Virus record (IMG/VR): IMGVR_UViG_3300035182_002389
Location: 96,001 to 160,000 of that record
DNA length: 64,000 bases
From: a virus
Lineage: Duplodnaviria > Caudoviricetes
Reading direction: 5' to 3' (one strand)
Numbering within the stretch: position 1 is the first letter of the stretch; the number at the start of each line of letters is the position of its first letter. Both the position numbers and the translations under genes were made by a program. The notes below the pieces were generated by a model. The model made no database searches and had not been told where the DNA came from. It worked only from the letters and a program-made list of their open reading frames with translations. Below, one piece after another: positions 26,628 through 56,833 of this stretch.

Positions 26628-27197
26628 CTACGCGTGCGATGCGACAGCGTAAGCCGCGTCGAAGGTCGGCTGATCCCAGCCCACGTAGATCGCGCCGTTG
26701 AGGTCGATGACCGGGATCGCGGTCGCTCCGCTCGGGGGGTTGCCGAGCTTCTTGAACAGCTCGTACGACGTCGTCGGATCCGCGAGGTCGCCGAATGCGT
26801 ACGGCAGACCGCGGCCCTCGAAGTACGCCCTCGCGCGTTTGGTGCGCGGGCAGCTCGTCGTGCCGTAGATGGTCAGCGGGACGACGACCTGCGGAAGAAC
26901 GGGCGACGGAGGCGGAGGCGGAGCGGGCGCCTGAACGGGCACCGGCACGACCGCAGGGGTCAGAGAGCACGACGGCACCTTGTCGGTCGGGCCTCCCGAA
27001 GACGGCACGCCGTCCAAACCCGTGAAGGTCCAAGACCCGTCCGAGTGCACCTCGATCGAACCTCCGTCCGTGGTTGCGAGGGTCGCGACGACCCAAGGCA
27101 TCGGCGCCGGCTCGGCCCGAGGAACGAACCTTTCGTAGCTGTAGCCATACGCCCCGACGGACGCGTGGGTCTTTCCGCAAGAGGCGCAGGAGGGCAT
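26628..27197 (-). CDS. glutaredoxin/NrdH-like domain protein (monothiol C-P-R-T)
   Basis: LTIYGTTSCPRTKRARAYF...TAIPVIDLNG..YVGWD; alternative start 27209. Confidence 0.8.
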   Translation of the reverse strand: MPSCASCGKTHASVGAYGYSYERFVPRAEPAPMPWVVATLATTDGGSIEVHSDGSWTFTGLDGVPSSGGPTDKVPSCSLTPAVVPVPVQAPAPPPPPSPVLPQVVVPLTIYGTTSCPRTKRARAYFEGRGLPYAFGDLADPTTSYELFKKLGNPPSGATAIPVIDLNGAIYVGWDQPTFDAAYAVASHA

Positions 27198-27223
27198 GCG
27201 CGAGAGCATAGACGATCTTCGCA

Positions 27224-27635: not shown

Positions 27636-27636
27636 G

Positions 27637-32821: not shown

Positions 32822-33385
32822 ATGAACGGTCTCATCCAGAAGTTCGGCGCGCAGAAGGCTTCGGCGGCGACGGGCGCGCCCGGCGAAGGCTGCAACGTCC
32901 CCGCGCAGATGCAGCAGGCGAATGCCGCCGCGATGTACCAGCTCCGCGTCAACGGGCTGACCTCGCCGGGCCTCGCCCCCAACACGACGGGCTGCTGCCC
33001 GCCCCCGGTCGTCCTCGACGCTTCGAGCCGCGACAGCAGCGGCGCGCAGCTCACGGTCGGCGCGAACGACGTGTTCAGCGTCACCGTGCAGCTCCAGGAG
33101 CCCTTCAAGGGCAACGACTTCGTCGTGGCTGCGCAGATCGCGCAGTACTTCGAGATCATGTCGATCAAGGTCGGCCGCGACGAGCAGCTCATCTCGGAAG
33201 CCGCGATCCCCGCCGAGGTCTTCTCGTCGGCCTCGCAGCGCCAGGTCGGCCTCGACATGCTCCCCTGCCCGACGTCGAAGCAAATCTTCGTCCAGGTGCG
33301 CAACGTCGACACGCAGGCCCGCTACTTCAAGGCCGCGTTCTTCGGCTCGTGCTTCGACTGCAACACGCCGCAGATCGGCGGCTGA
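32822..33385 (+). CDS. putative single jelly-roll capsid protein
   Basis: AGGAG SD; alternating beta-strand pattern (FSVTVQ, DFVV, YFEIMSIKVG, IPAEVF, QIFVQVRN, YFKAAFFG); strongly C/G-ending codons; fold is inferred. Confidence 0.5.
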   Translation: MNGLIQKFGAQKASAATGAPGEGCNVPAQMQQANAAAMYQLRVNGLTSPGLAPNTTGCCPPPVVLDASSRDSSGAQLTVGANDVFSVTVQLQEPFKGNDFVVAAQIAQYFEIMSIKVGRDEQLISEAAIPAEVFSSASQRQVGLDMLPCPTSKQIFVQVRNVDTQARYFKAAFFGSCFDCNTPQIGG

Positions 33386-37733: not shown

Positions 37734-38144
37734 ATGTTCTTCCCGCGCGTGATCCTGACGCTCTTCAACGGCGAGTACGATCGGGACCTCGGCGAGCGCG
37801 CCGTCTTGCACCTGCTCGACGCGCTCGTCGCCATCGACGAGGACTACCTCCGTCGCCACCCCGAGATCCCGAAGCTATACGCCTCGGGCGTGCGCTACGA
37901 ACGGCAGAAAGGCGACCAGGAAGACTGGCACGACATCCCGACCACCATCTCCATCGGCAAGAGCGACTGCAAGGTCCTCGCCGCGTGGAGGTGCGCCGAG
38001 CTGCGTCTGCAAGGCATCGCCGCCGTGCCGACGCTCTTGCGTCAGCCGACCAAGACCGGCCTGTACCTCTACCACATCCAGGTCCGCTACCCGAACGGGT
38101 ACATCGAAGACCCGAGCGTCATCCTCGGCATGGCGCCTCCCTGA
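37734..38144 (+). CDS. transglutaminase-like cysteine protein
   Basis: SDCKVLAAWRCAELR...YHIQV...IEDPS: Cys-His-Asp triad order. Confidence 0.7.
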   Translation: MFFPRVILTLFNGEYDRDLGERAVLHLLDALVAIDEDYLRRHPEIPKLYASGVRYERQKGDQEDWHDIPTTISIGKSDCKVLAAWRCAELRLQGIAAVPTLLRQPTKTGLYLYHIQVRYPNGYIEDPSVILGMAPP

Positions 38145-46257: not shown

Positions 46258-47079
46258 ATGCTGCCAATCCTTGCCGCTGTTGGAGCTTGGGAAGGGGCCT
46301 GGTGGCTCCGTCGCCGCAACGCGCGCACGTCGATGTACGCGGAGGCCGCTGCCAAAGCGCGCCAGCTCGGCAAACCGTTGCTCGTCATCGGCGCGCCCGA
46401 CGGGGGCGTCACGGCGGGCTACGGATGCGGAGACGTCACCATCGACCTGCAAGAGTCCTCGTGCCCCGTCAGCATCAAGGCCGACATCACGAAGACGCTC
46501 CCGTTCGACGACAACTCCGCGGTCGTGTTCGTGTCCTGCGTCCTCGAATACGTGAACGACGCCGAAGCGGCCATGCGCGAGCTTCGCCGTGTCGCAGGGC
46601 CGAACCTCTACATGGTTCGTGTCGAGCCGTGGACGCTCACGGCCTACCTCTACCCAGGCGCTCAGCGCACCTTCCCACGAAACGTCACCCCCGAGTCTGA
46701 GGCCGCCGTGCTCAAGCTCCGACCTTCCGGCCACGCTCTTCTCCGCCGCCACAACGAAACACTCGCGCCCTCGCGCGAAGGCCCGACTGCCATCGTGCGC
46801 ACGGGCGCCGTCGCCGACCCTTCCGCGCCCGCCCCCGGGTTCAACTGGATGCTCGCGCTCGGCGCCCTCGGAGCCATCGGCGTCGCGCTCTACATCGTGA
46901 AGAAGAGCGGCGAGAAGGTCGAGGTCACGCACCGCCAGGCTTCGTACGAAGACCTTTGGAGCGATGCGACGCGTGCGACGCGCGACCCGCAGCGCGCCAA
47001 GAAACAGAAATCTCGCCTCGAAGCGTGGGAAGCGCGCAAGGCGATGAGCGCCATCGCGCGCCGAGAGAACGAGTGGTGA
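46258..47079 (+). CDS. membrane-associated class I SAM-methyltransferase-like protein
   Basis: LLVIGAPDGG...TIDL...ADITKTLPFDDNS...VLEYVNDAEAAMRELRRV; two hydrophobic segments. Confidence 0.65.
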   Translation: MLPILAAVGAWEGAWWLRRRNARTSMYAEAAAKARQLGKPLLVIGAPDGGVTAGYGCGDVTIDLQESSCPVSIKADITKTLPFDDNSAVVFVSCVLEYVNDAEAAMRELRRVAGPNLYMVRVEPWTLTAYLYPGAQRTFPRNVTPESEAAVLKLRPSGHALLRRHNETLAPSREGPTAIVRTGAVADPSAPAPGFNWMLALGALGAIGVALYIVKKSGEKVEVTHRQASYEDLWSDATRATRDPQRAKKQKSRLEAWEARKAMSAIARRENEW

Positions 47080-47294
47080 TGTACGCTCGGCCCATCCTCG
47101 CGCGACGGAAGACGTCTGCCGCTGTTGGCGCCGCCGCCGACGACGGCGACAAGCTGTCGACGAACACGATCGCGGTTCTCGCCGTCGTATGTCCTCTCGC
47201 GGGCTACCTTGCCTATCGGGCCTTCGGCGAGCCGCCTACAGAATCCGCGCGATCCACATCCACGCCCGCCCACCGATTGAGCTGGAACTCATGA
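47079..47294 (+). CDS. small TM protein with RPxL...VGA N-terminal motif
   Basis: MYARPILARRKTSAAVGA; one TM. Confidence 0.65.
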   Translation: MYARPILARRKTSAAVGAAADDGDKLSTNTIAVLAVVCPLAGYLAYRAFGEPPTESARSTSTPAHRLSWNS

Positions 47295-47533
47295 GCTTTC
47301 TTCGACCCTGCGGACGTTCTCTGTTGAGCGCGCCTACGTGGCCCACCGCACAAGCCCAGGTCGGCGGCACCGCCGAAACCGTCGCCGCCACCGCAACAGG
47401 TCTGCTCGTCGCAGGGTTCACCATCGCCCTTGGCGCCATGGCCGTCTACGATCGGGGTTTCACCAAGGGCTGCAACGACTGCCGAAACCAAGACCGAAAG
47501 TGGGCCCTCGAAGGCAAGTCGAAGTTCATCTGA
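47291..47533 (+). CDS. small TM protein with RP...VGG N-terminal motif
   Basis: MSFLRPCGRSLL...AQVGG; one TM; CxxC near the C-terminus. Confidence 0.65.
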   Translation: MSFLRPCGRSLLSAPTWPTAQAQVGGTAETVAATATGLLVAGFTIALGAMAVYDRGFTKGCNDCRNQDRKWALEGKSKFI

Positions 47534-47565
47534 CAAGACACATAACGAGCTGCTACTATCTTCCC

Positions 47566-47766
47566 ATGCCCCGACCGAACATCGTCCTCGAACCCGGCCA
47601 CGTTTTTCTCTACAAAGCCCTCGGCAAGACGAACGAGACCATCAAGGTCTCCGCCGAAGACGCGAAGAAGGCGAACTTCATCAAGCTCTTCGACGTGCAC
47701 GGGCGAACCTTCGCCGCGTTCTCCATCAAAGGGACGCTCTACGCGCAGCCCTACCGGCACGGATAG
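47566..47766 (+). CDS. hypothetical protein
   Basis: TACTAT 6 nt before the ATG. Confidence 0.6.
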   Translation: MPRPNIVLEPGHVFLYKALGKTNETIKVSAEDAKKANFIKLFDVHGRTFAAFSIKGTLYAQPYRHG

Positions 47767-47774
47767 GAGACGTC

Positions 47775-48617
47775 GTGGCCGAAACCCTCGCCGACACGCT
47801 TCGCCAGCTCGGCGCCCGCATGCTTCGGATTCTCACCGAAGAGAAGCATCGAAACCGATCGCCGCTCGAAGTCATTCGCGAAGAGCTGGCTCGGCAGGGG
47901 ATCGACCCGAGCGGGGAGAAGCAGAACGCGATCACGCTCTTGTTCGCTGCTTTCTGGGCGATGAGCGGGTTCGCCTACGTCGCGGTCGGCCACACGCTCT
48001 CGGCCTCGCTCATGGCCACCGATCCGCCCGAGGACGTCGAAGACCTCGACGTCCCATGGCCCGCGTTCATCGTCGGCGTGCCCAACGGCCTCATCCCGGG
48101 CGATCCTGCCGAGTTCATCGGCATCGCTCGAAGATCCGATTCCAGCGACGCCATGGTTCTGATCGGATGGCGCGCCGGCAACCGCTACTCCGCATGGTTC
48201 GGAAGCATTCGCGAACTCTCAGAGAACGCCAGGCACGCGGGCGCCGACGTCATCCTGCTCTACCGTTTGCTCATCGGCGTCATTCTGGAGCTGGACGCCC
48301 CCAAGGCCTCGGGGACCTTGCAGTCGCCACCGAAGCAGCCGAAGACTCGTCGGCAAGGGGAGCTGCCTCGCGTGTGGGTCTACCGCCTCGTGCGCGACGT
48401 CAAGGTCGACTGCCGCCCGTGGGTGCAGGCGTTCGTGCAGAGCGGAGGCAAGTCGCCGTCCGTGCAGCGCCTCACGCGAGGGCACCAACGACGCGTCGCA
48501 GTCGGACCTGGGCGCGCAGGACGGCGTTGGCAGCGCATCGAGCCCTATTGGAAGGGAAGCGTCGACGCTCCGATTGCGACGAGTCGACACGTCCTTGCGA
48601 CCAAGCGGCGTCCGTGA
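47775..48617 (+). CDS. hypothetical protein
   Basis: AGGAG SD, GTG start; C-terminal RGHQRRV..G.GR..R....I.PYWKG motif. Confidence 0.7.
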   Translation: MAETLADTLRQLGARMLRILTEEKHRNRSPLEVIREELARQGIDPSGEKQNAITLLFAAFWAMSGFAYVAVGHTLSASLMATDPPEDVEDLDVPWPAFIVGVPNGLIPGDPAEFIGIARRSDSSDAMVLIGWRAGNRYSAWFGSIRELSENARHAGADVILLYRLLIGVILELDAPKASGTLQSPPKQPKTRRQGELPRVWVYRLVRDVKVDCRPWVQAFVQSGGKSPSVQRLTRGHQRRVAVGPGRAGRRWQRIEPYWKGSVDAPIATSRHVLATKRRP

Positions 48618-48630
48618 CTTGTCGAAAGTC
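48616..48630. promoter_or_regulatory. palindromic operator-like site
   Basis: GACTTGTCGAAAGTC followed by TAGGAT. Confidence 0.6.
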
Positions 48631-48651
48631 CAAGCGTAGGATGGTGGCACC

Positions 48652-49239
48652 ATGAGTTCCAAGCTCCCGTACATCCTCGGCGGCGCCGCGGTCCTCGGCA
48701 TCGGCTACTTCCTCTACAAGAAGAGCCAGACGCCTACCGCAACCGGAGCAAAGAGCACCGCGGGAACGCCGCAGGGATCTGCTGGCACGCCGCAGGGAGC
48801 CGCCGGAACACCGCAAGGGCCTGCCGCTCCAGAGCCGACAAGACCGATTCTCGTGAGGAGCCCGGGGCCGCTCAACACGAACGCCATTCGTCTTCGCCCG
48901 GAACTCTTCGCGACGCAGCCCGAGCCGGCGCCTCAGCCGGAGCCCCAGCCCAAGCCAGAGCCGGAGCCACAGCCCAAGCCAGAGCCGGAGCCTCAGCCCC
49001 AAGAGCCGGTCGACACCGCCGATCTGGACGCGTGCTCTCAGGCCGTGGAAGACATCTCCAACAGCACCCTGCGGATGGCGGTCAAAGCCGGAATTTCTCA
49101 GGCTGCCAAACTTGGCGGTCCCAAGGGAGCTTCGGAGCTTCAGACGGCGATCTCCGCGCTTCGGATGGCCGCGTTCCTCGACGACTCCATGACCGACATC
49201 GCAGACTGCTTGCAAGCGGCGGCCGACAAGATGAAGTAA
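48652..49239 (+). CDS. signal-anchored protein with AGTPQG and EPQP repeats
   Basis: YILGGAAVLGIGYFLYKK; C-terminal two-Cys helical domain. Confidence 0.8.
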   Translation: MSSKLPYILGGAAVLGIGYFLYKKSQTPTATGAKSTAGTPQGSAGTPQGAAGTPQGPAAPEPTRPILVRSPGPLNTNAIRLRPELFATQPEPAPQPEPQPKPEPEPQPKPEPEPQPQEPVDTADLDACSQAVEDISNSTLRMAVKAGISQAAKLGGPKGASELQTAISALRMAAFLDDSMTDIADCLQAAADKMK

Positions 49240-49311
49240 GACGTCCGAACGAATGTTTCAGGCTCACGTCCACGGACCATTCGGACGCTTTTTCACCCGA
49301 GGCGCAAAAGC

Positions 49312-49833
49312 ATGAGCGCAAAAGTCCAGCTTCTTCAGCTCGGCGTGCCAGAGCGACTCGTCGAGAAGACGGGGGCGCTCATCGGCAAGGGCACCGAAGG
49401 CGTCATCTACGCGCTCTCGGAGCACCGCATCCTCAAGGTCAACCTCACCGCTCCGCGCACGCAATCCATCGCCGCCGTCGCCAAACGTGCGAACAAGAGC
49501 AAGTGGTCCGCGCACATCTACGAGTACGGCCGGTGCGAACCACGAGGGTTCTGGTACACGAGCGAGCGACTCTACAAGGTGCCTGAGAGAGCGCGCGTGC
49601 TGCTCAACGTCATCGGCCTGTCCTACGTCGCGTGGAAGCGCGGGCGGATGACCAAAGCGGAGCACGACGAGCGCGTGAAGGGGGCCATCGAACGGATGCC
49701 TCCGCAGCTTCAGAGCATCGTGAAGAGCGCTCGCAAGGCGGGGTACGTCGACGTGCACGGCGCGAACGTCATGATCACAAAAGACGGCATCTACAAGTTC
49801 ATCGACCCGGAATCGATCTCACGCGTCGTCTGA
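49312..49833 (+). CDS. protein-kinase-like (atypical) protein
   Basis: IGKGTEGVIY, ILKV, DVHGANVM, FIDP. Confidence 0.75.
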   Translation: MSAKVQLLQLGVPERLVEKTGALIGKGTEGVIYALSEHRILKVNLTAPRTQSIAAVAKRANKSKWSAHIYEYGRCEPRGFWYTSERLYKVPERARVLLNVIGLSYVAWKRGRMTKAEHDERVKGAIERMPPQLQSIVKSARKAGYVDVHGANVMITKDGIYKFIDPESISRVV

Positions 49834-49864
49834 CCGACCTTCAAACCGCACAATCGGTTCCTGC

Positions 49865-49936
49865 TGGGACGTAGCCAAGTTGGTAAGGCAGGGGATTTTG
49901 ATTCCCCCACCGCGGGTTCAAGTCCCGCCGTCTCTA
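49865..49936 (+). tRNA. trnQ: tRNA-Gln (anticodon UUG)
   Basis: Cloverleaf: TGGGACG acceptor, AGCCAAGTTGGTAAGGC D-arm, GGGGA-TTTTGAT-TCCCC anticodon arm, GCGGG-TTCAAGT-CCCGC T-arm; no encoded CCA. Confidence 0.9.
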
Positions 49937-49987
49937 CTGCCGCCGAGGCGGCTTTCCACAAGCCAACGAGAAGGGTACTCTTCCACC

Positions 49988-50245
49988 ATGTCGCCCCGCC
50001 CCATCCTTTCTCGCCGCGCCATCACCGGCGCCGTCACCACCGACGTCGCGGCTGCCGCCGCCGCAGCCGCGCCGCCCGTCGCGCCCGCGCCCATCGTCAC
50101 CACCGAGCCGTCCACCGGGCAGAAGATCGTCGGCACCGCAGGCGCGGCCGTCGGCCTCGCGGGCATCGGCGCCATGCTGCTCATCCCCGTCGCCGTGCTC
50201 GCGCTCATCGGCACCGGCGCCTACTACCTCTACAAGAAGGCCTGA
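49988..50245 (+). CDS. small TM protein with RPxL...TGA motif
   Basis: MSPRPILSRRAITGA; C-terminal hydrophobic helices ending YYLYKKA. Confidence 0.7.
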   Translation: MSPRPILSRRAITGAVTTDVAAAAAAAAPPVAPAPIVTTEPSTGQKIVGTAGAAVGLAGIGAMLLIPVAVLALIGTGAYYLYKKA

Positions 50246-50248
50246 ACC

Positions 50249-50449
50249 GTGATCGGGCGAGCGCTGCTTTCAAGGCGCGCTACGGTCGGCGCTGAATCTG
50301 CCACGCCCGCCACGCCGCAGGCTGCGAGCAGCGCGGTCTTGTGGACGTCGGCCATTACGCCCATCGCCGTTCTCGCGATCGCGGGCGGCATCGCCTACTA
50401 CATCGTCAAGAGCGAGCCGGATCGTCGCGCGGGACACACGCTCTTCTAG
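50249..50449 (+). CDS. small TM protein with RALL...VGA motif
   Basis: MIGRALLSRRATVGA; one TM. Confidence 0.7.
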   Translation: MIGRALLSRRATVGAESATPATPQAASSAVLWTSAITPIAVLAIAGGIAYYIVKSEPDRRAGHTLF

Positions 50450-50461
50450 TCGAGGCCCGTC

Positions 50462-51616
50462 ATGAATCTCGACCAAAAGCTTCGCGTCCTCGTTGCTGGG
50501 GATTCCATCGTCGCGGGCTATCCGACGACCTCCGGGTTTCGCAAGAAGCTGCGCGAGTCGCTGCCGGAGAGCGTCGTCGAGTTCGTGGGGCCGAACGTCG
50601 ACGCGGCCGGGCTCAGGCACGGCGGCTATCATGGGCACCCATCAAAGAGCCTCGTCAAAAAGCTCCCAGAGCTGCTCGCTGATCGCCCCGACATCGCCAT
50701 CATCATGGTGGGGGGCAACGGCATCCCCGATACGACCCCCGAGGACGTGGGCCAAGAGGTTTCAGCCCTCGCCAAAGGTCTCGTCGACGGAGGCGTGCGC
50801 GTCGTCTACGTCTCGAAGATTGCCGACGTCTCCCTCTTCAGCGAGCACGTGCGCGCCTACAACGAGCAGATCGCGCTTCAGTGCCTGCTGCCGAACGTGC
50901 ACGTCATCGACATTGGCGGCGCAGTCGGTCCTGCCGATCGTGGATCGCCGTACTACGCTGACGACTGCCATCCGAACGAACTCGGATACGATCGCATGGC
51001 CGACGTTCCGCTCGCTCAGGTTTTCGGGCAAACCCCGCAGCCCATCACACGCGTTGGCGCGAGCGGTGAAAGCCCGACCTCACTCCTTCAGAGAGCCGAC
51101 CAAGAACTGAAGTCTGCGTACCCCGAGATGACCTCGGAGATGCGCGCCGTCTTCATCAAGTCGTGCCACGAAATCACAGGCCTCGGCCAGTCGGGCGATT
51201 GGGCTCCGTTCGGTGTCGCGTCCAACAACGTCGGCGCCATCGTCTATCGCCCAGGCCACGACGCGACCTACTTCATGGGCCGCGACGGCGTGAAGTACGC
51301 GAAATACCCGACGCTCAAGGAAGGCCTTATCGCCGCTGTCGAAGCTTACGAGCACATCATCTCGCCCGACGTGCCCGAGCGACCGTCCTTTCGCCGTCCG
51401 GTGCTCACGCGCCCCTACCCGGAAGCGACGGCGAACTTCAACCTGCACGGCGGCAAGCCCATCCTCCGCATCAGCGTTCGAGGTTCCTCGGACGCAGAGC
51501 CCACCGGCAACCCCTTCTCCTACGCCAACCTCGGCGTTCTCGTCATCGCAGGCGCCCTGTTCGCGGGCACGCTCGCGCTTCGACCCGGGCACAACGCGCC
51601 TCCGAGCCACCGATGA
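50462..51616 (+). CDS. SGNH/GDSL esterase fused to a second domain and C-terminal TM
   Basis: GDSI (block I), HGGYHG (II), GGNG (III), DCHPN (V). Confidence 0.8.
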   Translation: MNLDQKLRVLVAGDSIVAGYPTTSGFRKKLRESLPESVVEFVGPNVDAAGLRHGGYHGHPSKSLVKKLPELLADRPDIAIIMVGGNGIPDTTPEDVGQEVSALAKGLVDGGVRVVYVSKIADVSLFSEHVRAYNEQIALQCLLPNVHVIDIGGAVGPADRGSPYYADDCHPNELGYDRMADVPLAQVFGQTPQPITRVGASGESPTSLLQRADQELKSAYPEMTSEMRAVFIKSCHEITGLGQSGDWAPFGVASNNVGAIVYRPGHDATYFMGRDGVKYAKYPTLKEGLIAAVEAYEHIISPDVPERPSFRRPVLTRPYPEATANFNLHGGKPILRISVRGSSDAEPTGNPFSYANLGVLVIAGALFAGTLALRPGHNAPPSHR

Positions 51617-51933
51617 GCACTGAGAGCTTGCGCGAGGTCTTCGCACGCGTGAAGCGCGAGAAAGCCGAACGCGAAGCGATCGTTCAAGCGTTCATCGCTC
51701 AGATCGGCGAGAGGCCCTTCTCCGTCGTCGTTCCTGCCCACGGCATATTTACGGACGACGTCACCTTCTACGTTCACCGGGACACACACGAGAAGTATCT
51801 CGGGCAGTGGCGCGTCACTCGCTTCATCAACGGCGAGCCTTGGGGCCACTACACCCACGCATCCTACGCCGACGTGCTCCGTCAGGTTGTCGGCGAGTAT
51901 CACGCCGATCTGCACAAAGCCAAACTGCGCTGA
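51613..51933 (+). CDS. hypothetical protein
   Basis: ATGA-coupled ORF. Confidence 0.65.
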   Translation: MSTESLREVFARVKREKAEREAIVQAFIAQIGERPFSVVVPAHGIFTDDVTFYVHRDTHEKYLGQWRVTRFINGEPWGHYTHASYADVLRQVVGEYHADLHKAKLR

Positions 51934-52019
51934 CATCTCCAACGAGCATGGAGATTTGACGGAGGCGTCTCTACGATGACCTCCGCCACGAGATTTCAAC
52001 CAAGAACGAGAGAAACACC

Positions 52020-52799
52020 ATGCACGACCCGAAGTCCCTTCTGCACGACCCGAGCCTCCTCCGACTCGGCAAGAAGGCCGTCCGCCACGACGACCGCACC
52101 CTGCAACTCGTCAAGTATCTCGGCGCGGCCCTTCCGCCGGCTCCCGCGAGCCTCGTCTGGTCGACGAAGACCGACAACAAGTGGCCGATGTTCCTCAACG
52201 ACTCGCTCGGCGACTGCACGTGCGCCGCGGCCGGCCACATGGAGCAGCTCTGGAGCGCCGCCGGGATCAAGAACGAGATCACTGTCGCCGACGCCGACGT
52301 GCTCGCGATGTACGAAGGCGCTGCCGGGTACAACCCGAAGGATCCGTCGACCGATCAGGGAGCCGTCGAGCTGGACGTCCTGAAGTTCTGGCAGAAGACC
52401 GGCCTCGCGGGGCGCAAGATCGGCCCGTACGCCTCGGTTTCGGTGCAGAGCAAGACCATCACGAAGGACGGCATCTACCTCTTCGGCGGCATCTACACCG
52501 GGTTCGCGCTGCCCGTCAGCGCGCAGTCGCAGGCCGTGTGGGACGTTCCCGCCCGCGGCGCCGTCGGACGCGGCGCGCCCGGGAGCTGGGGCGGCCACGC
52601 CGTGCCCGTCATCGACTACGACACGCGCGGCCTCACGTGCGTGACCTGGGGTACGCTGAAGCGCATGACCTGGGCCTTCTACCAGACCTACTGCGACGAG
52701 GCGTACGCCATCCTCAGCCCGGACTTCCTGTCCGCCGGCAAGTCCCCCGCCGGGTTCGACGCGGCGACGCTCGCGGCCGACCTCGCGAAGCTTCACTGA
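52020..52799 (+). CDS. papain-like (clan CA) cysteine peptidase
   Basis: NDSLGDCTCAA (Cys), GGHAVPVIDYD (His), VTWG. Confidence 0.8.
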   Translation: MHDPKSLLHDPSLLRLGKKAVRHDDRTLQLVKYLGAALPPAPASLVWSTKTDNKWPMFLNDSLGDCTCAAAGHMEQLWSAAGIKNEITVADADVLAMYEGAAGYNPKDPSTDQGAVELDVLKFWQKTGLAGRKIGPYASVSVQSKTITKDGIYLFGGIYTGFALPVSAQSQAVWDVPARGAVGRGAPGSWGGHAVPVIDYDTRGLTCVTWGTLKRMTWAFYQTYCDEAYAILSPDFLSAGKSPAGFDAATLAADLAKLH

Positions 52800-52868
52800 T
52801 CTCGCGAAGCTCCAACGATTCCTAGAGCGGAGGGACTCGCTATCCCTCCGTTCGCCTTTTGTGCTCTT

Positions 52869-52883
52869 GGCTTTTCACAAGCC
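52869..52883. promoter_or_regulatory. palindromic operator-like site
   Basis: GGCTTTTCACAAGCC followed by TACGAT and an ATG 6 nt later. Confidence 0.65.
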
Positions 52884-52906
52884 AGTGTCCGGGGTACGAT
52901 CTCTTC

Positions 52907-53419
52907 ATGGCCCGACGCAAGATGACGATCGAAGAGTTCTCCACCGAAGAGCGTCGCCGGCGCGACGCGAAGATCATGAGCCTTCGCGCGCAGCACGAAG
53001 CCCACGAGCGCGCGCACGAGAGCGTCCTCGGATCGCCTCGCTACCAGAAGCTTCGCGCGAAGGGCGGGAGCATCTCTGCCGAAGAGAGCGCGCGCATCTC
53101 CTCGATCGCACCCATGAGCAACGAGCAGCGCGGGGAGCTGGAGCTGGAGGAGATCCTCCGCGATCTGCCGAGCATGTTCGTCGCCTATGCAAAGGTCCAC
53201 GGGCCGTCCAAGCACGAGTCGCGGCCCCAATCGGTCACGCTGACCACCTGGCCGGGTCAGGTCATCGCCGAAGGCGTCGCTGGGAGCATCTACAAGTCGC
53301 CGGGGTTCGGCGGTCCCATCCGCCGACGTCAGGTCGTGGCCAAGATCCGCGGCGTCACCTACGTCGGCATCTGGTCGTTCGACAGCGCCGACGCGGTGCG
53401 GATGCGGCGGAGGGGCTGA
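52907..53419 (+). CDS. hypothetical protein
   Basis: ORF starting MARRKMTIEE. Confidence 0.7.
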   Translation: MARRKMTIEEFSTEERRRRDAKIMSLRAQHEAHERAHESVLGSPRYQKLRAKGGSISAEESARISSIAPMSNEQRGELELEEILRDLPSMFVAYAKVHGPSKHESRPQSVTLTTWPGQVIAEGVAGSIYKSPGFGGPIRRRQVVAKIRGVTYVGIWSFDSADAVRMRRRG

Positions 53420-53742
53420 TGGTCGGCATCCTCGCGCTCTTGCCCGCGAGCAAGCGGTACTACAGGGCTGGCGCGAGCCCCGGGTTCGCGCAGTCTTCTG
53501 CAACCACAGGGTTCTGCGCGCCGTGCATGCTCGCGCTCATTGCGGGCACCGACGCCGCCGTGCCTGCCGCGCCCGCTCCATCTGCGCCCGCGTCAGGGCC
53601 AAGCGCGCTCACCATCGTCGGCATCGCTGGCGCCGTCGGCCTCGTCGGGTTTCTTGCCTACGGCGCGCTCAACCCGCCGAGGAGCAACGAGTTCGATCGG
53701 CCGGGCCACGTTCGCGCCATGCGCAACTCCTTCGATCGCTAA
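53419..53742 (+). CDS. small TM protein
   Basis: TGATG-coupled; CxxC; one TM. Confidence 0.6.
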   Translation: MVGILALLPASKRYYRAGASPGFAQSSATTGFCAPCMLALIAGTDAAVPAAPAPSAPASGPSALTIVGIAGAVGLVGFLAYGALNPPRSNEFDRPGHVRAMRNSFDR

Positions 53743-53753
53743 CACGAGGACCC

Positions 53754-54092
53754 ATGCCCCACGACGACGACTTCATTCCTTCTTGGGCCGGCCGCACGAG
53801 CTACCGAGACATCGGCAACGCGGAACGGCAATCAGCCAGGCTTCACGAGACGACGGACGCTCTCGTGAGACTCGATCCGTCGCTGACGCCGCGCATGGCC
53901 TACGTTCTATGCAGGGCCTACGCGGGCAGCATCAGCGGTGAAGATGCCGCAGACGATGCAAAGAGCGTCCTTGGCGCCGCGCGACGGAACAAGGCTCGCA
54001 CCGAGAAGCTCCTCGACCAAGTCCGGCGCGAACCCATGTCCCTCGGTGGGCGGACGCCGAAGTCCAGCGTCGTTCGCCGCAAGAAGGCCTGA
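53754..54092 (+). CDS. hypothetical protein
   Basis: GAGGA SD. Confidence 0.6.
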   Translation: MPHDDDFIPSWAGRTSYRDIGNAERQSARLHETTDALVRLDPSLTPRMAYVLCRAYAGSISGEDAADDAKSVLGAARRNKARTEKLLDQVRREPMSLGGRTPKSSVVRRKKA

Positions 54093-54094
54093 CC

Positions 54095-54283
54095 ATGCTC
54101 ACCGTGCAGGGGCTCCTCGACGAGACCAAGCGCTATCGTGCAACCACGGCCACGGGCGCGACCATCGAAGAGGAGACCGCCAAGACGGCCATCTCCTCCG
54201 CTCTGCCGCTCATCGCTCTCGGAGGCCTGCTGCTCGTCGGTCTCTACGCGGCCAGCGCGCCGTCTGCGACCCGCCCACGCTGA
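54095..54283 (+). CDS. small TM protein
   Basis: One C-terminal TM. Confidence 0.6.
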   Translation: MLTVQGLLDETKRYRATTATGATIEEETAKTAISSALPLIALGGLLLVGLYAASAPSATRPR

Positions 54284-54286
54284 TCG

Positions 54287-54865
54287 TCAAGGCGCATTGC
54301 GACGCGCCTCGAACGTAATCAGGAGCTTGTCGAGCAGATCCTTCATGCGCTTGCGAAGGGCCCCTTCCTTGACGCCGAAGATGACCGCGATCTCCTTGTA
54401 TTCGAGGCCATCGTCGAGACGTAGGGTCAAGAGGTTGCGAGCGTCGTCGCTCAGCTCGCTCGCGATCTCACGGAGAAGCGCCACGTCGCGATGATGTTGA
54501 AGTCCCGTCCCCGGGCCTGCGAGGCTTCCGATCCAACGCTCGCTCGCGACGCCGGAGGTCGGCAAGGTGCGCCGACGCGCTCTCTTCGCCGACTCCGCCG
54601 AGTCGAGCGCCTTGTGACGAGCGATGCCGCACAGCCACGAGTGCATCGTGCTCTGCCCCGCAAAACCGCCGATCTTTTCGGACGCCGCCGCGAACGTCAC
54701 TTGCGCCACATCTCGGGCGCGCTGGTCGTCGCGCACGTAGCGCATCGCGAAGCGGACGATGCTCTTGTAGTAATGGCGGGCGGCAAGGTTCAACGCGCGA
54801 TGTCGATCGCCCGCCTGAAGCGCCTGCCGAATCTGAGCCTCGACGGCCGCGATGTCTTCCGCCAT
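54287..54865 (-). CDS. ECF-type sigma-70 factor
   Basis: Region 2 (ARDVAQVTF...F.GQST.HSWLCGIARHKALD) and region 4 (LSDDARNLLTLR..DGLEYKEIA..FGV.EGALRKR). Confidence 0.9.
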   Translation of the reverse strand: MAEDIAAVEAQIRQALQAGDRHRALNLAARHYYKSIVRFAMRYVRDDQRARDVAQVTFAAASEKIGGFAGQSTMHSWLCGIARHKALDSAESAKRARRRTLPTSGVASERWIGSLAGPGTGLQHHRDVALLREIASELSDDARNLLTLRLDDGLEYKEIAVIFGVKEGALRKRMKDLLDKLLITFEARRNAP

Positions 54866-54927
54866 GGCGTCAGCCTACTCCATCGACGATTGCGGAAGAA
54901 GAGAGAGGGCGTGCTACGATTGCCGCC

Positions 54928-55179
54928 ATGGCCTACCAGCGCCCCGCGCTCGCCGCTGCGTCTCGACACGTCGCCCCGCGCGCAGCCGTAGGAGGCATCG
55001 CCGATGCGGCGCCGCTCGGCGTTCCCGTTCCCATGTGGCTCATCGTCGCTGGCGGCGCCATCGGCGCCATCGGTGCAATCGAGCCTACCGCTGCGCCCTA
55101 TCGAACGCCCGTTCTTCTCGCCGGTCTGCTCACTGCGTGCGCCGGCGCTGGCCTGACCGTCCTCAAGGGGTTCCAATGA
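54928..55179 (+). CDS. small two-TM protein with YQRPAL...VGG motif
   Basis: MAYQRPALAA...AAVGG; GTGCTACGAT 7 nt before the ATG. Confidence 0.7.
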   Translation: MAYQRPALAAASRHVAPRAAVGGIADAAPLGVPVPMWLIVAGGAIGAIGAIEPTAAPYRTPVLLAGLLTACAGAGLTVLKGFQ

Positions 55180-55403
55180 ACTGCCGGCGTCCCGTGCTTG
55201 CCCGCATTTCTGGCGCTCCCGTCGTTCACACGGGCGGAACCTCGTCCGGCGTTCCTGCTACGGGACTCGCCGTCGCGGCAATGTTCGGAGGCATCAGCGT
55301 CCTCAGCGCTGCCAGCCTTCACGATCGGGCTACCGCCAACAGCCTCCTCTACCCGGTCGGCGGCGTTCTCGCTGTGGTCGGGGCCTTGAACCTGCTCTTC
55401 TGA
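55176..55403 (+). CDS. small two-TM protein with RRPVL...TGG motif
   Basis: MNCRRPVLARISGAPVVHTGG. Confidence 0.7.
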   Translation: MNCRRPVLARISGAPVVHTGGTSSGVPATGLAVAAMFGGISVLSAASLHDRATANSLLYPVGGVLAVVGALNLLF

Positions 55404-55412
55404 GAGGCTTCC

Positions 55413-55652
55413 ATGAGCTACCAGCGACCCTCCCTCTGTTCTTCGCCTTCTCGGCCCGCCCTTGCGAGCGTTGGAGGTTCGGACACCTCTTCCGGCGCAA
55501 GCGAATGGATCCTCCCCGTACTGCTCGTCGGAGGGGGCGCTGCACTCTACATGGAGATGCGTCGAGAACGCGCAAAGGAAGAGGCGTCTGTTGTCCAGGG
55601 CAGGGCCTTCTACGCGAGTCGCCACCCTGAGAGGTCGCGCGCCGCGCGATAG
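55413..55652 (+). CDS. small TM protein with YQRPSL...VGG motif
   Basis: MSYQRPSLC...ASVGG; WILPVLLVGGGAALYMEM. Confidence 0.7.
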   Translation: MSYQRPSLCSSPSRPALASVGGSDTSSGASEWILPVLLVGGGAALYMEMRRERAKEEASVVQGRAFYASRHPERSRAAR

Positions 55653-55655
55653 ATC

Positions 55656-56204
55656 ATGGACTACCGTCGCCCCGCCCTCTGCTCTCGGCCCGATCTCGGG
55701 CCTGCGGCTACGCATGTCGGCGCAGACGTTCCTGCGACCTCAAGCCCGACGGGGTGGATACTGCCGGTCTTGATTCTTGGCGGAGGCGCCGCGCTCTACT
55801 TCGAGATGAAGAAGGAGCGCGCGAAAGAGGATTCGCAGACGGCGCAAGGGCGCGCCTTCTACGAGAAGCGTCGCTCTGAGAAAGAGCGCGAACGCGCCCT
55901 CCGAGAAGAGCGTTTTGGCCCCACCACTCCAAGGACCGGAGCTGCCTTTCACGGACCGAAGGCGCCATCCATCGCCGATCGTCCGATGACAACTGAGGAG
56001 GCCGCCAGGGTTCAGCGCGTGCTCCACCCTGTTCCGCCGCTTCGCCCGGACGCCTTGCCCGAGGTTCAACACGTACCCCGTGAGGCTCGGGAACGGGCCG
56101 GGTTCAAACCCCTGCACATCGAGAAGATGCGCAAAGAGCTGGAGGCCCTCCGGCGCGAGTTCGGCCCTTCCACGGAAGGTCCGAAAACCGAGCGCAGGCC
56201 GTGA
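55656..56204 (+). CDS. TM protein, paralog of 55413
   Basis: MDYRRPALC...THVGA; WILPVLILGGGAALYFEM..ERAKE....QGRAFY shared. Confidence 0.75.
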   Translation: MDYRRPALCSRPDLGPAATHVGADVPATSSPTGWILPVLILGGGAALYFEMKKERAKEDSQTAQGRAFYEKRRSEKERERALREERFGPTTPRTGAAFHGPKAPSIADRPMTTEEAARVQRVLHPVPPLRPDALPEVQHVPREARERAGFKPLHIEKMRKELEALRREFGPSTEGPKTERRP

Positions 56205-56251
56205 TTGTTTGCGCGTAGGAGCAGGGCCCGACTTACGCTAAGCTGACTCGC

Positions 56252-56833
56252 ATGGCGTCTGTCCGCGGCCTGCTCGCACACAAGCCCCAAGCCCACGTTC
56301 CGCCGGCCAACGTCGGCGCACCTCTCCCGGCCGGACCTGCCCCCGCATCGAGCGGACCGAACCTGACGACTCTCCTCGTCATCGGCGTCGTCGGCGCAGG
56401 CGCGTACGTCTACTGGAAGAAAAAGAAGGAAGGCGAGAAGGCGGAAGCTAGCTATCGCAACCGCCAACCCGTCCAATACGACGCCTCCGTCGTTCGGACT
56501 CCGCACAGGCAGATGTCCGCCGTCGCCGGAACGAGCAAGAGCCCGGTTGGGTTCTTGGCACCGCCCTCGTCTGTCTCCGGGTCGACAGAGAGGGCCTCTC
56601 CGCGCCATACGGAGGGAGGCGTCATCTCTCGCGAGGCGTACTCCTACCCCGACGTGCCGCGTTTCCCCGACGCCCAAGCTTCGTCGTTCCGTTGGCGCCC
56701 ACCCGTCGACCAGCCGCCCTCTACGGTTCCGGGAACTGAGCGAGACATGCCGCCCTTCACCGTCGTCTCGGGGGACGCTCCCTTCGCACCCGAGTCCATG
56801 AGCGAGTCTCTCTCCAACCGCCGCAGCTTCTGA
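56252..56833 (+). CDS. TM protein with ...NVGA motif
   Basis: LLVIGVVGAGAYVYWKKKK; TAAGCT 7 nt before the ATG. Confidence 0.75.
   Translation: MASVRGLLAHKPQAHVPPANVGAPLPAGPAPASSGPNLTTLLVIGVVGAGAYVYWKKKKEGEKAEASYRNRQPVQYDASVVRTPHRQMSAVAGTSKSPVGFLAPPSSVSGSTERASPRHTEGGVISREAYSYPDVPRFPDAQASSFRWRPPVDQPPSTVPGTERDMPPFTVVSGDAPFAPESMSESLSNRRSF

What the first reader, a model, noticed from the sequence alone, without database searches (positions are those of the whole stretch)
47079..56833. Shared N-terminal RPxL...(V/T)G(A/G) motif in nine small membrane proteins surrounding a papain-like protease
Seen: MYARPILARRKTSAAVG-A (47079), MSFLRP...AQVG-G (47291), MSPRPILSRRAITG-A (49988), MIGRALLSRRATVG-A (50249), MAYQRPAL...AAVG-G (54928), MNCRRPVL...VHTG-G (55176), MSYQRPSL...ASVG-G (55413), MDYRRPAL...THVG-A (55656) and MASVRGLL...ANVG-A (56252). 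In each, a basic 14-26-aa leader ends in small-(V/T)-G followed by A or G, then a spacer and a TM. A clan CA cysteine peptidase (52020-52799) lies in the middle of the cluster. Known: adenovirus, poxvirus and ASFV virion proteases mature core and membrane proteins at xGG/x or AG/A sites. Inferred: a bacterial-virus counterpart of glycine-directed proteolytic maturation, or a sorting signal for virion membrane proteins.
Basis: partly seen in the sequence, partly recalled or inferred. Interest (0 to 1): 0.7.

Follow-up and report, generated by a model that had tools for sequence, protein, structure and literature searches.

The report
Shared glycine-ended leaders on viral proteins
At least 14 small membrane proteins, six soluble proteins and a jelly-roll protein of an uncultured 202-kb bacterial virus begin with short leaders that all end in Val/Thr-Gly-Ala/Gly, which looks like a removable targeting peptide, but nothing ties it to the neighbouring papain-like protease.

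Summary
All nine ORFs share a basic N-terminal leader (M-x-[Y/F/C]-x-R-P-x-L, a variable stretch, then [A/S/H]-x-[V/T]-G-[A/G]), followed by an acidic or neutral spacer and a membrane segment. I count 10 such genes in the window and 14 in the 202-kb genome.

- **Same junction elsewhere.** It also closes a second, unrelated leader (M-P-x-C-P-x-C-G-x-N-H-A-x-[V/T]-G-[A/G]) on six soluble proteins. It closes the N-terminal arm of a jelly-roll protein too.
- **Protein-level selection.** Synonymous codon changes, an ortholog pair (79% relative) and a variant leader (…A-H-V-G) in a 66% relative all point to this.
- **The 52020 gene.** It is a papain-fold Cys/His peptidase. It is also the only gene this virus shares with 162 related loci. 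Its neighbours are not conserved, and two near-complete relatives that carry it show no motif enrichment.
- **A second candidate enzyme.** A transglutaminase-like Cys-His-Asp enzyme (37734-38144) sits beside jelly-roll proteins whose arms are rich in [V/I]-G-A in three other viruses looked up.

Best reading (about 0.5): a removable targeting or pro-peptide like the T4 capsid-targeting sequence; the protease is unassigned and cleavage is unproven. The scan earlier noted an analogous shared glycine-ended leader in other phages, with a different (A24) peptidase.

The parts
47079..47294 (+). Class-1 leader protein, 71 aa: 17-aa leader (M-Y-A-R-P-I-L ... A-V-G | A), acidic spacer, membrane segment
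   Evidence: (22.6-26.1 bits); start overlaps the upstream stop (TGATG)
47291..47533 (+). Class-1 leader protein, 80 aa, divergent block A (M-S-F-L-R-P-C ... Q-V-G | G)
   Evidence: (30.1 bits, training member); ATGA start/stop overlap
49988..50245 (+). Class-1 leader protein, 85 aa, C-terminal membrane anchor; 14-aa leader ending I-T-G | A
   Evidence: the ortholog in L088 has an identical leader and a diverged spacer
50249..50449 (+). Class-1 leader protein, 66 aa, GTG start; leader ends T-V-G | A
   Evidence: the L088 ortholog keeps L, R, A, V-G-A through synonymous changes and changes the other leader residues
54095..54283 (+).
54928..55179 (+). Class-1 leader protein, 83 aa, first of a tandem run (M-A-Y-Q-R-P-A-L ... 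A-V-G | G)
   Evidence: (31.8 bits)
55176..55403 (+). Class-1 leader protein, 75 aa, two membrane segments (leader ends V-H-T-G | G)
   Evidence: 27 bits; ATGA overlap with the preceding stop. Public gene calls keep only the last 40 aa.
55413..55652 (+). Class-1 leader protein, 79 aa; paralogue of 55656
   Evidence: (33 bits)
55656..56204 (+). Class-1 leader protein, 182 aa (leader ends T-H-V-G | A), with a long charged C-terminal tail
   Evidence: 35.3 bits. The public call of 144 aa starts inside the membrane segment, so the upstream ATG is the better start.
56252..56833 (+). Class-1 leader protein, 193 aa, divergent block A (M-A-S-V-R-G-L-L ... N-V-G | A)
   Evidence: (29.4 bits)
52020..52799 (+). 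Papain-fold cysteine peptidase, 259 aa, with a probable N-terminal pro-region; first candidate protease
   Evidence: no Pfam family; link to the leaders not supported
37734..38144 (+). Transglutaminase-like Cys-His-Asp enzyme, 136 aa; second candidate protease
   Evidence: Feature-based Atlas hits to Transglut_core and Peptidase_C93 clusters. Invariant D-C, Y-H and E-D in 4 homologs. Adjacent to the jelly-roll gene in L188, L189 and L190. Pfam and Foldseek matches are weak only.
32822..33385 (+). Jelly-roll protein, 187 aa, whose N-terminal arm carries the same junction at residues 16-19 (A-T-G | A)
   Evidence: in its family the arms are 2.9-fold enriched in [VIT]G[AG]
26628..27209 (-). Class-2 leader protein (M-P-S-C-A-S-C-G-K-T-H-A-S-V-G | A) with a weak glutaredoxin-like C-terminal half
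   Evidence: the public call starts 36 codons downstream (P0128)

Best explanation
The nine ORFs are real genes of one family. There are 10 in the window and at least 14 in the genome. They encode small membrane proteins with four parts: a basic leader of 14-27 residues, a [V/T]-G-[A/G] junction, an acidic or neutral Ala/Pro/Thr-rich spacer, and one to three membrane segments, most often followed by Lys/Arg.

The leader has two blocks set a variable distance apart:
- a recognition block at the extreme N-terminus ([Y/F]-x-R-P-x-L);
- the junction block.

The same junction closes a second, unrelated leader (a C-P-x-C-G-x-x-H half zinc knuckle) on six soluble proteins. It also closes the arm of a jelly-roll protein.

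The most likely mechanism is inferred, not shown. The leaders would be removable targeting or pro-peptides, working like the 10-20-residue capsid-targeting sequences of T4 internal proteins. The N-terminal block would direct the protein to an assembly site or partner. A virus-encoded cysteine peptidase would then cut at the glycine junction, leaving a new Ala or Gly (or Gly-proximal) N-terminus.

Which enzyme cuts is open. Candidates are the papain-fold protein at 52020, the transglutaminase-like Cys-His-Asp protein at 37734, or a host enzyme. The exact scissile bond is also open: after Gly, or after the following Ala/Gly.
For: **Shown here.**
- The motif is far above chance.
- Conservation is at the protein level. 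Arg, Val/Thr, Gly and Ala/Gly of the motif use varied codons across paralogues. The 50249 ortholog in L088 keeps the motif through synonymous changes while other leader residues change and one is deleted.
- A 66%-protease relative carries a variant leader (M-N-H-x-x-L-A-S-L-R ... A-H-V-G) on at least six proteins. One of them was not used in training and scores 13.4-15.6 bits.
- The junction is the only element shared by three unrelated N-terminal modules. Class 2 has M1, C4, C7, H11, A12 and G15 invariant in six proteins that are otherwise 22-42% identical.
- There is a charge switch exactly at the junction: leaders +1 to +4, spacers 0 to -2.
- [VT]G[AG] is enriched 1.6-fold at residues 10-28 of the proteome (p 0.007), and VGA is the third most enriched N-terminal tripeptide in a de novo count.
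- In the jelly-roll family, N-terminal arms are 2.9-fold richer in [VIT]G[AG] than the domain (p 1.8e-7; 43 of 99 proteins). The gene sits beside a Cys-His-Asp enzyme in 3 of 3 contigs examined.
- Two cysteine-peptidase-type genes are present in the genome.

**From established knowledge.**
- T4 capsid-targeting sequences and phiKZ/SPN3US propeptides are conserved N-termini on diverged paralogues, removed by the prohead protease (PMC5694885).
- Papain-family enzymes select mainly on a hydrophobic P2 residue (own knowledge).
- Transglutaminase-like proteases cut at small-residue motifs: LapG at Ala-Ala (PMC10990149), and lasso B2 after Thr/Ile/Val at position -2 (PMC10368454).
Against: - There are no protein-level data of any kind, and the virus is uncultured.
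- The papain-fold gene has no conserved neighbourhood, and it occurs in near-complete relatives without motif enrichment.
- Neither the transglutaminase-like gene nor the jelly-roll gene was found in the 40 kb held from the 66% relative that does carry leaders.
- In that relative the residue after Gly is N, F or K in three cases, so the junction rule is looser there.
- In the jelly-roll arms of other viruses the motif is often repeated in an acidic context. That could equally be a binding repeat.
- The transglutaminase-like protein could cross-link proteins instead of cutting them.
- The proteome-wide enrichment of the bare tripeptide is modest.
Confidence: 0.5

Rival explanations
1. The leader is an uncleaved N-terminal docking or sorting motif. 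The blocks stay on the mature proteins. They bind a common partner (a capsid inner face, scaffold, chaperone or insertase), and the [V/T]-G-[A/G] junction is a flexible hinge.
For: - The position at the extreme N-terminus is conserved, and the junction is shared by unrelated modules.
- In jelly-roll arms of other viruses the motif is repeated up to five times. That is typical of binding repeats.
- No protease could be tied to the motif by co-occurrence.
Against: - A hinge would not need conserved Val/Thr and Ala/Gly flanks across three unrelated modules.
- The sharp charge switch at the junction and the variable distance between the blocks (5-18 residues) fit a recognition-plus-cut-site design better.
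Confidence: 0.28
2. The leader is a topology or insertion control element. The basic leader would hold the otherwise acidic N-tail in the cytoplasm, as the extra positive charge does in lambda antiholin S107, or its rare codons would slow early translation to help membrane targeting. It need not be cut.
For: - Leaders carry +1 to +4, spacers 0 to -2, and the flank after the membrane segment is often Lys/Arg-rich.
- Class-1 leader codons have GC3 0.73 against about 0.82 genome-wide (p 2e-4), and TCT makes up 10 of 28 Ser codons against 6% genome-wide.
- Class-2 leaders, on soluble proteins, have normal GC3 (0.80).
- Lysis-type genes (SLT, GH25, PG-binding) lie nearby.
Against: - It does not explain the sequence-specific blocks.
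- It does not explain why soluble proteins and a jelly-roll protein share the junction.
Confidence: 0.07
3. The leader is a lasso-peptide-type (RiPP) leader, read by a PqqD-like recognition element and cut by a B2-type protease of the virus or its host.
For: - Seven of the 14 class-1 leaders carry Y-x-x-P-x-L (an eighth has F in place of Y), and all have Val or Thr two residues before the putative new N-terminus, which is Gly or Ala.
- Lasso leaders have Y-x-x-P-x-L at -17 to -12 and Thr at -2. Ile/Val at -2 occurs in Acidobacteriaceae and others (PMC10368454).
- Some protease homologs are binned with Acidobacteriota MAGs.
Against: - No PqqD match in the genome.
- The only Transglut_core3 hit is weak and belongs to a YunG-like phage protein.
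- The distance from the Leu of Y-x-x-P-x-L to the Val/Thr two residues before the cut varies from 5 to 18 residues, whereas in lasso leaders it is fixed.
- The 'cores' are membrane proteins of 45-170 residues with no Asp/Glu at positions 7-9.
- The 66% relative lacks Tyr and Pro in the motif.
Confidence: 0.05
4. The motif has no function of its own. It would be either inherited similarity among recent paralogues, or a nucleic-acid signal (a ribosome-binding-site-masking pyrimidine tract) that happens to be translated.
For: - The genes lie in tandem groups.
- Pro of R-P is CCC in 9 of 9 cases and Leu is always CTY.
- At 49988 an upstream GAGAAGGG pairs with CCUUUCUC inside the leader (z -3.25), and this stretch is 100% identical in L088.
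Against: - Outside the leader the paralogues are very diverged (16-38% identity).
- Motif residues vary synonymously.
- Nine of ten start regions fold no better than shuffles.
- The junction recurs on unrelated proteins with different DNA.
Confidence: 0.05

Closest known systems
T4 capsid-targeting sequences (IPI-III, Alt, gp24) and phiKZ/SPN3US head-protein propeptides removed by the prohead protease (PMC5694885)
   Same: Both are short (10-20 residue) N-terminal leaders conserved on proteins that are otherwise diverged or unrelated. Both end in a short consensus. Several proteins per genome carry them, and the proposed role is targeting followed by removal.
   Different: The known enzyme is a serine protease (S77, gp21 family), which is absent here. 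The known site is L/I-x-E or S/A/G-x-E, not V/T-G-A/G. Known substrates are head-internal soluble proteins, not small membrane proteins.
Lasso-peptide leaders with the B1 (PqqD-type) reader and the B2 transglutaminase-like cysteine protease (PMC10368454)
   Same: Both have a Y-x-x-P-x-L block, a beta-branched residue two positions before the cut, and Gly or Ala as the new N-terminus. The known protease has the same broad fold class as the enzyme at 37734.
   Different: Here there is no PqqD match; a cyclase was not searched for. The spacing is variable. The cargo is whole membrane or soluble proteins. The motif is not kept in the 66% relative.
Adenovirus, poxvirus and ASFV maturation at (M/I/L)-x-G-G-x, A-G-x and G-G-x sites
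   Different: Those enzymes are clan CE (adenain / Ulp1-like). No C5 or C48 match exists here. Both candidates here are clan-CA-type folds.
Double-glycine leaders cut by C39 peptidase domains
   Same: A 15-30 residue leader ends in G-G or G-A, and the protease is papain-like.
   Different: There is no C39 match. The hydrophobic residue is at -3, not -4/-7/-12. The leader is basic where double-glycine leaders are acidic. G-N, G-F and G-K occur in the 66% relative. No transporter was identified.
LapG-type bacterial transglutaminase-like cysteine proteases (C93) (PMC10990149)
   Same: A small Cys-His-Asp enzyme removes an N-terminal module at a small-residue (Ala-Ala) motif. LapG is among the top, though weak, structural matches of the 37734 model.
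   Different: LapG is periplasmic, calcium-dependent and acts on one giant adhesin. The structural match here is not significant (E 0.05).
Papain-like proteases of RNA viruses with Gly at P2 and a small P1 residue (alphavirus nsP2, coronavirus PLpro; own knowledge, not tested here)
   Same: The site type (A/V)-G-(A/G), then the cut, would match V-G-A / V-G-G if cleavage follows the Ala/Gly.
   Different: These are unrelated viruses with polyprotein substrates. No homology was tested.

Membership tests
Papain-like cysteine peptidase, clan CA (gene 52020-52799) | Papain fold | tested here: met
   AF2 model pLDDT 88.5; Foldseek to xylellain 3OIS E 1.9e-8 with TM 0.62; many procathepsins
Papain-like cysteine peptidase, clan CA (gene 52020-52799) | Catalytic Cys and His conserved | tested here: met
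   C66 (G-D-C-T-C-A-A-A-G-H) and H193 (S-W-G-G-H) are invariant in 27 homologs
Papain-like cysteine peptidase, clan CA (gene 52020-52799) | Match to a curated C1 or other peptidase profile | tested here: not met
   No Pfam family at E 0.01 or better; it is a distinct family with more than 3,000 members
Papain-like cysteine peptidase, clan CA (gene 52020-52799) | Cuts the leaders after V/T-G | not testable with these tools
   Needs biochemistry. Co-occurrence does not support it.
Lasso-peptide precursor / leader | Y-x-x-P-x-L at fixed positions -17 to -12 | tested here: inconclusive
   Y-x-x-P-x-L is present in 7 of 14 class-1 leaders (an eighth has F for Y), but the distance to the junction varies by 13 residues
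Lasso-peptide precursor / leader | Core starts with Gly/Ala/Ser/Cys and has Asp/Glu at positions 7-9 for ring closure | tested here: not met
   Read directly from the sequences. The acidic residues fall at varied positions, and the 'cores' are 45-170 residue membrane proteins.
Lasso-peptide precursor / leader | PqqD-type recognition element and B2 protease encoded alongside | tested here: not met
   No PF05402 match. The weak PF13471 hit (18.8 bits) lies in a YunG-like protein.
Double-glycine leader / C39 system | C39 peptidase domain present | tested here: not met
   No PF03412 match in the genome
Double-glycine leader / C39 system | G-G, G-A or G-S at -2/-1 in all members | tested here: inconclusive
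   Holds for every G000 member but fails in the 66% relative (G-N, G-F, G-K)
Sec or Tat signal peptide | Hydrophobic core of 7-15 residues between the basic N-region and the cut site; twin arginine for Tat | tested here: not met
   Leaders have no hydrophobic core (sequences; hydropathy). R-R occurs next to the Leu in only 3 members.
Type IV prepilin / class III signal | A24 peptidase present, and Gly followed directly by the hydrophobic segment | tested here: not met
   No PF01478 match. The spacer is up to 32 residues, and class-2 carriers show no obvious membrane segment.
T4-type capsid-targeting sequence | Short conserved N-terminal leader on several otherwise unrelated proteins of one virus | tested here: met
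   Two leader classes on at least 20 proteins
T4-type capsid-targeting sequence | gp21-type (S77) or HK97-type (S78) prohead protease | tested here: not met
   No PF03420, PF04586 or PF00574 match
Adenain / Ulp1-type glycine-directed maturation | Clan CE protease encoded | tested here: not met
   No PF00770 or PF02902 match
Transglutaminase-like cysteine peptidase (gene 37734-38144) | Cys-His-Asp triad conserved | tested here: met
   D78-C79, Y113-H114 and E125-D126 are invariant in four homologs of 39-64% identity
Transglutaminase-like cysteine peptidase (gene 37734-38144) | Profile or fold match to the superfamily | tested here: inconclusive
   Pfam PF01841 E 0.019 in one homolog only. Top Foldseek hits are transglutaminase-like proteases but with E 0.03 or weaker. 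Atlas feature scores 0.92-0.95.

The most novel reading that the evidence does not exclude
This virus and its relatives would run a leader-peptide system for virion assembly. Interchangeable N-terminal address modules (the Y-x-R-P-x-L type and the C-P-x-C-G-x-x-H type) send small membrane proteins and capsid-associated proteins to the assembling particle. All are then trimmed at one [V/I/T]-G-[A/G] site by the small transglutaminase-like Cys-His-Asp enzyme that sits next to the jelly-roll protein gene in the viruses examined. That would be a new class of virion maturation protease. It would be mechanistically akin to lasso-peptide B2 and LapG, not to any known phage prohead protease.
Probability: 0.2. 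Interest if true: 0.8.

Novelty: new variant of a known kind. Interest (0 to 1): 0.58.

Why it matters
If the leaders are removed, this would be the first case of several things in a bacterial virus:
- glycine-directed propeptide processing that covers many small membrane proteins;
- two different address modules sharing one cut site;
- a cysteine, not a serine, maturation enzyme.

It would give a simple sequence rule for predicting the particle proteome of a large group of uncultured soil viruses. It would also offer short portable tags for loading cargo into such particles, as the T4 targeting sequence does.

Practical points hold even if the leaders are not removed:
- Public gene calls cut off or miss several of these leaders.
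- The 52020 protease family (more than 3,000 members) still has no assigned substrate.

Tried and rejected
- **Complex prediction.** Protease residues 56-259 against the first 33 residues of the 55656 protein gave no answer: score 0.03 against a mark of 0.32, controls not run. This is not evidence either way.
- **Close DNA or protein relatives in phage and IMG/VR collections.** None were found with the region, the sigma factor, the SLT protein or the jelly-roll protein.
- **Protein 55656.** It has no homolog other than itself in the large protein collection.
- **Near-identical contigs L085-L087.** They are 99.9-100% identical and so useless for rate analysis.
- **Family profile A2 against four related virus records.** No hits.
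- **Lasso B2 lead.** The weak Transglut_core3 hit at 27580-27876 belongs to a YunG-like phage protein.
- **Other protease families.** C48, C5, S78, S77, ClpP, A24, C39 and PqqD were all absent.
- **Class-2 leader pattern and jelly-roll / transglutaminase-like profiles in the protease loci fetched up to each scan (about 2.2 Mb, including 40 kb of the 66% relative).** None outside G000.
- **Class-2 proteins as jelly-roll paralogues.** Not supported by the profile (E 0.8-9). They share only a 25-34 residue segment of the arm.
- **Type I signal peptidase site.** V at -3 and A/G at -1 would fit. I rejected it because there is no hydrophobic core, and N, F or K occupy -1 in the relative.
- **RNA structure at the starts.** Only 1 of 10 start regions is significant.

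Full report
**Setting.** The window is bases 96001-160000 of a single 202,518-base virus record with 65% G+C. With so much G+C every frame is open, so I called genes with a codon log-odds model trained on the genome's own long ORFs. From about 41 kb onward the window is a run of plus-strand genes. Many encode proteins with one membrane segment. Among them are GDSL lipases, an SLT transglycosylase, a methyltransferase and one minus-strand ECF sigma factor.

**Observation.**
- Three of the starts overlap the preceding stop codon: TGATG at 47077-47081, and ATGA at 47291 and at 55176. This is the usual signature of coupled translation, and it argues that the leader-including starts are the real ones.
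- Public gene calls often disagree. 55656 is called as 144 aa starting inside its membrane segment. 55176 is called as 40 aa. 55413 is called on only one of three near-identical contigs.
- A strict pattern matches 7 genes (10 start sites) of 8181 candidate starts, against 0.56 on average in shuffles. It matches one spurious ORF in 1.35 Mb of related loci.
- I aligned the leaders on two anchors, the Leu of R-P-x-L and the V/T-G. The resulting profile scores members at 14-35 bits. Reversed controls reach at most 11.2 bits and 12.2 bits; the alignment and profile are.
- Further members: window 54095-54283, and genome 38337-38657 (-), 45915-46271 (-), 164276-164479 and probably 191242-191421.
- Every leader has net charge +1 to +4. 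Every spacer between the junction and the first membrane segment has charge 0 to -2. The flank after the membrane segment is often Lys/Arg-rich.

**Is it protein-level?**
- Motif residues use varied codons: Arg CGG/CGA/CGC/CGT; Val GTC/GTT/GTA; Gly GGC/GGA/GGG/GGT; Ala GCC/GCG/GCA/GCT.
- The closest diverged relative (L088, protease 79% identical) carries orthologs of 49988 and 50249.
  - In the first, the leader is identical while the spacer has diverged.
  - In the second, Leu, Ala, Gly and Ala of the motif changed synonymously. Non-motif residues were replaced and one was deleted, and the junction became A-H-V-G-A.
- A 66% relative (L001, with its extensions L169 and L170) has at least six proteins with a variant leader (M-N-H-x-x-L-A-S-L-R ... 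A-H-V-G).
  - One was not used to build the profile and still scores above the controls.
  - A collagen-like protein there also begins with a leader ending A-A-H-V-G.

The leader is therefore a translated, selected module that evolves in its first block and keeps V/T-G.

**The junction is shared by other modules.** I scanned the proteome for the junction block alone near N-termini.
- This revealed six proteins that begin M-P-x-C-P-x-C-G-x-N-H-A-x-[V/T]-G-[A/G]. M1, C4, C7, H11, A12 and G15 are invariant, and the bodies are otherwise 22-42% identical.
- One body has a weak LysM match and one a weak glutaredoxin match.
- The pattern has no match in reversed controls and none in the related loci scanned (about 2.2 Mb). 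Near relatives keep it.
- The 187-residue jelly-roll protein at 32822 has the junction at residues 16-19.
- The bare tripeptide is enriched 1.6-fold at residues 10-28 in this genome (p 0.007). It is not enriched in two near-complete relatives.
- VGA ranks third in an unbiased count of N-terminal tripeptides.

**The protease at 52020.**
- It folds confidently as a papain-type enzyme, and its best matches are pro-enzymes. That suggests its first 55 or so residues are a pro-region. Cys66 and His193 are invariant.
- It belongs to a very large, tightly conserved family: 3,397 hits, most of the listed ones over 50% identical.
- The context argues against the proposed partnership.
  - Of about 350 G000 proteins, it is the only one with homologs across the 162 related loci; the rest match at most 6.
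  - Those loci share almost nothing with each other around the gene; the largest neighbour family is in 15 of 157.
  - The two near-complete relatives that carry it have neither profile hits nor junction enrichment.
- Within the narrow clade G000 / L088 / L001, leader genes do lie 0.2-9 kb from it. That is shared descent, not independent evidence.

**A second candidate enzyme.**
- The jelly-roll protein has 282 relatives. Their N-terminal arms are 2.9-fold richer in [V/I/T]-G-[A/G] than their domains (p 1.8e-7). The arm consensus is (D/E)-(I/L)-(V/I)-G-A, and the last copy is often followed by an Arg-rich stretch.
- In three contigs I looked up, the gene order is the same: membrane protein, then jelly-roll protein, then a 135-147 residue protein. 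That last protein is 41-62% identical to window 37734-38144.
- It has invariant D-C, Y-H and E-D pairs.
- The other support is weak. Feature-based hits go to Transglut_core and Peptidase_C93 clusters. One Pfam match has E 0.019. The top structural matches are transglutaminase-like proteases including LapG, none significant.
- This enzyme and the jelly-roll family do not co-occur with the 52020 family in the loci I hold. In my limited sample, then, the V/I-G-A signature travels with the transglutaminase-like gene and not with the papain-fold gene.
- I did not find either the jelly-roll or the transglutaminase-like gene in the 40 kb available from the leader-bearing 66% relative. Its other 120 kb are unseen.

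**Mechanism.**
- *Shown:* a two-block leader; a junction common to three unrelated modules; a charge switch at the junction; protein-level constraint; two cysteine-peptidase-type genes in the genome.
- *Inferred:* the leaders are address or pro-peptides that are cut at the junction.
- The closest working model is the T4 capsid-targeting sequence. There, 10-20 residue N-termini conserved on diverged proteins direct incorporation and are removed by the prohead protease. Conserved N-termini on diverged paralogues are also seen in SPN3US.
- A Val/Thr-Gly site suits a papain-type S2 pocket (own knowledge). It also resembles the Thr/Ile/Val(-2) rule of lasso B2 proteases and the small-residue sites of LapG.
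- The Y-x-x-P-x-L block matches the lasso leader motif in letters. The membership tests fail, though: no PqqD match, variable spacing, no ring-forming core, and the motif is lost in the 66% relative.
- Sec, Tat, prepilin, double-glycine/C39 and clan CE systems were each tested and not met.

**Rivals.**
- An uncleaved docking motif remains quite possible, since the repeated motifs in jelly-roll arms look like binding repeats.
- A charge-block or translation-pacing role is suggested by the charges and by unusual codons in class-1 leaders: GC3 0.73 against about 0.82, and TCT at 10 of 28 Ser codons against 6%. It cannot explain the junction on soluble proteins.
- A purely nucleic-acid explanation is weak. 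Only the 49988 start has a significant hairpin.

**Verdict.** This is a new variant of a known kind of system, namely propeptide or targeting leaders on virus structural proteins. Cleavage is unproven, and both the enzyme and the exact bond are open.

Noticed in passing
G000 47628-48452 (-), 48649-49131 (-), 49154-50464 (-), 50541-51281 (-), 198588-199142 (+); window 26628-27209 (-): These six proteins form a second leader family. Each starts M-P-x-C-P-x-C-G-x-N-H-A-x-[V/T]-G-[A/G], a half zinc knuckle. Their bodies are diverged; one has a weak LysM match and one a weak glutaredoxin-like match. Four lie in tandem next to the class-1 gene at 45915.
   Followed up: partly
window 52020-52799 and loci L004-L167: The papain-fold protease family has more than 3,000 members at roughly 45-97% identity, yet no conserved neighbourhood. 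A GH25-like lysozyme gene is adjacent in 13 of 157 loci. Some members sit on contigs of 240-505 kb, so it behaves like a mobile or accessory gene with an unknown substrate.
   Followed up: partly
proteins P0133-P0280 (jelly-roll family); L188 8001-8999, L189 8001-8606, L190 8001-8879: The N-terminal arms of this jelly-roll family carry one to five acidic repeats of the form (D/E)-(I/L)-(V/I)-G-A, often ending just before an Arg-rich stretch. The gene is flanked by a membrane protein and a transglutaminase-like Cys-His-Asp protein in all three contigs examined.
   Followed up: partly
window 49865-50047: A tRNA-Gln gene (49865-49937) lies just upstream of the 49988 gene. The stretch 49940-50031 is 100% identical in the 79% relative L088. 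It can form a hairpin that pairs an SD-like GAGAAGGG with CCUUUCUC in leader codons 6-8 (z -3.25).
   Followed up: partly
class-1 leader codons, e.g. window 55413-55478: Codon use in the leaders is unusual. GC3 is 0.73 against about 0.82, TCT makes up 10 of 28 Ser codons against 6% genome-wide, Pro of R-P is always CCC and Leu is always CTC or CTT. Class-2 leaders have normal GC3. The cause is unknown.
   Followed up: partly
window 54287-54865 (-): An ECF-type sigma factor (Sigma70 regions 2 and 4) is the only minus-strand gene here. It is transcribed divergently, 62 bases from the tandem run of class-1 genes at 54928-56833. No anti-sigma domain was seen in those genes.
   Followed up: no
L170 13467-14540: A collagen-like (G-x-y repeat) protein of the 66% relative begins with a basic 20-residue stretch ending A-A-H-V-G, the same ending as that virus's membrane-protein leaders.
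   Followed up: no
window 27649-28104 (+): This 151-residue protein has a C...H pattern and gave a weak Transglut_core3 hit. By feature and structure look-alikes it belongs to the phage YunG-like family.
   Followed up: yes
window 55176-55403, 55413-55652, 55656-56204, 26628-27209: Public gene predictions truncate or omit these genes, using starts downstream of the leader or making no call at all. Database searches that rely on called proteins will therefore miss the leaders.
   Followed up: partly
alignment A1, columns about 46-56 (protease residues about 48-57): At the junction between the pro-region and the mature domain of the protease family, a conserved K-[V/T] precedes W-P-M. In some homologs it reads K-V-G-A or K-V-G-G, which resembles the leader junction. 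It may be an autoprocessing site, but the motif is not present in G000's own copy.
   Followed up: no
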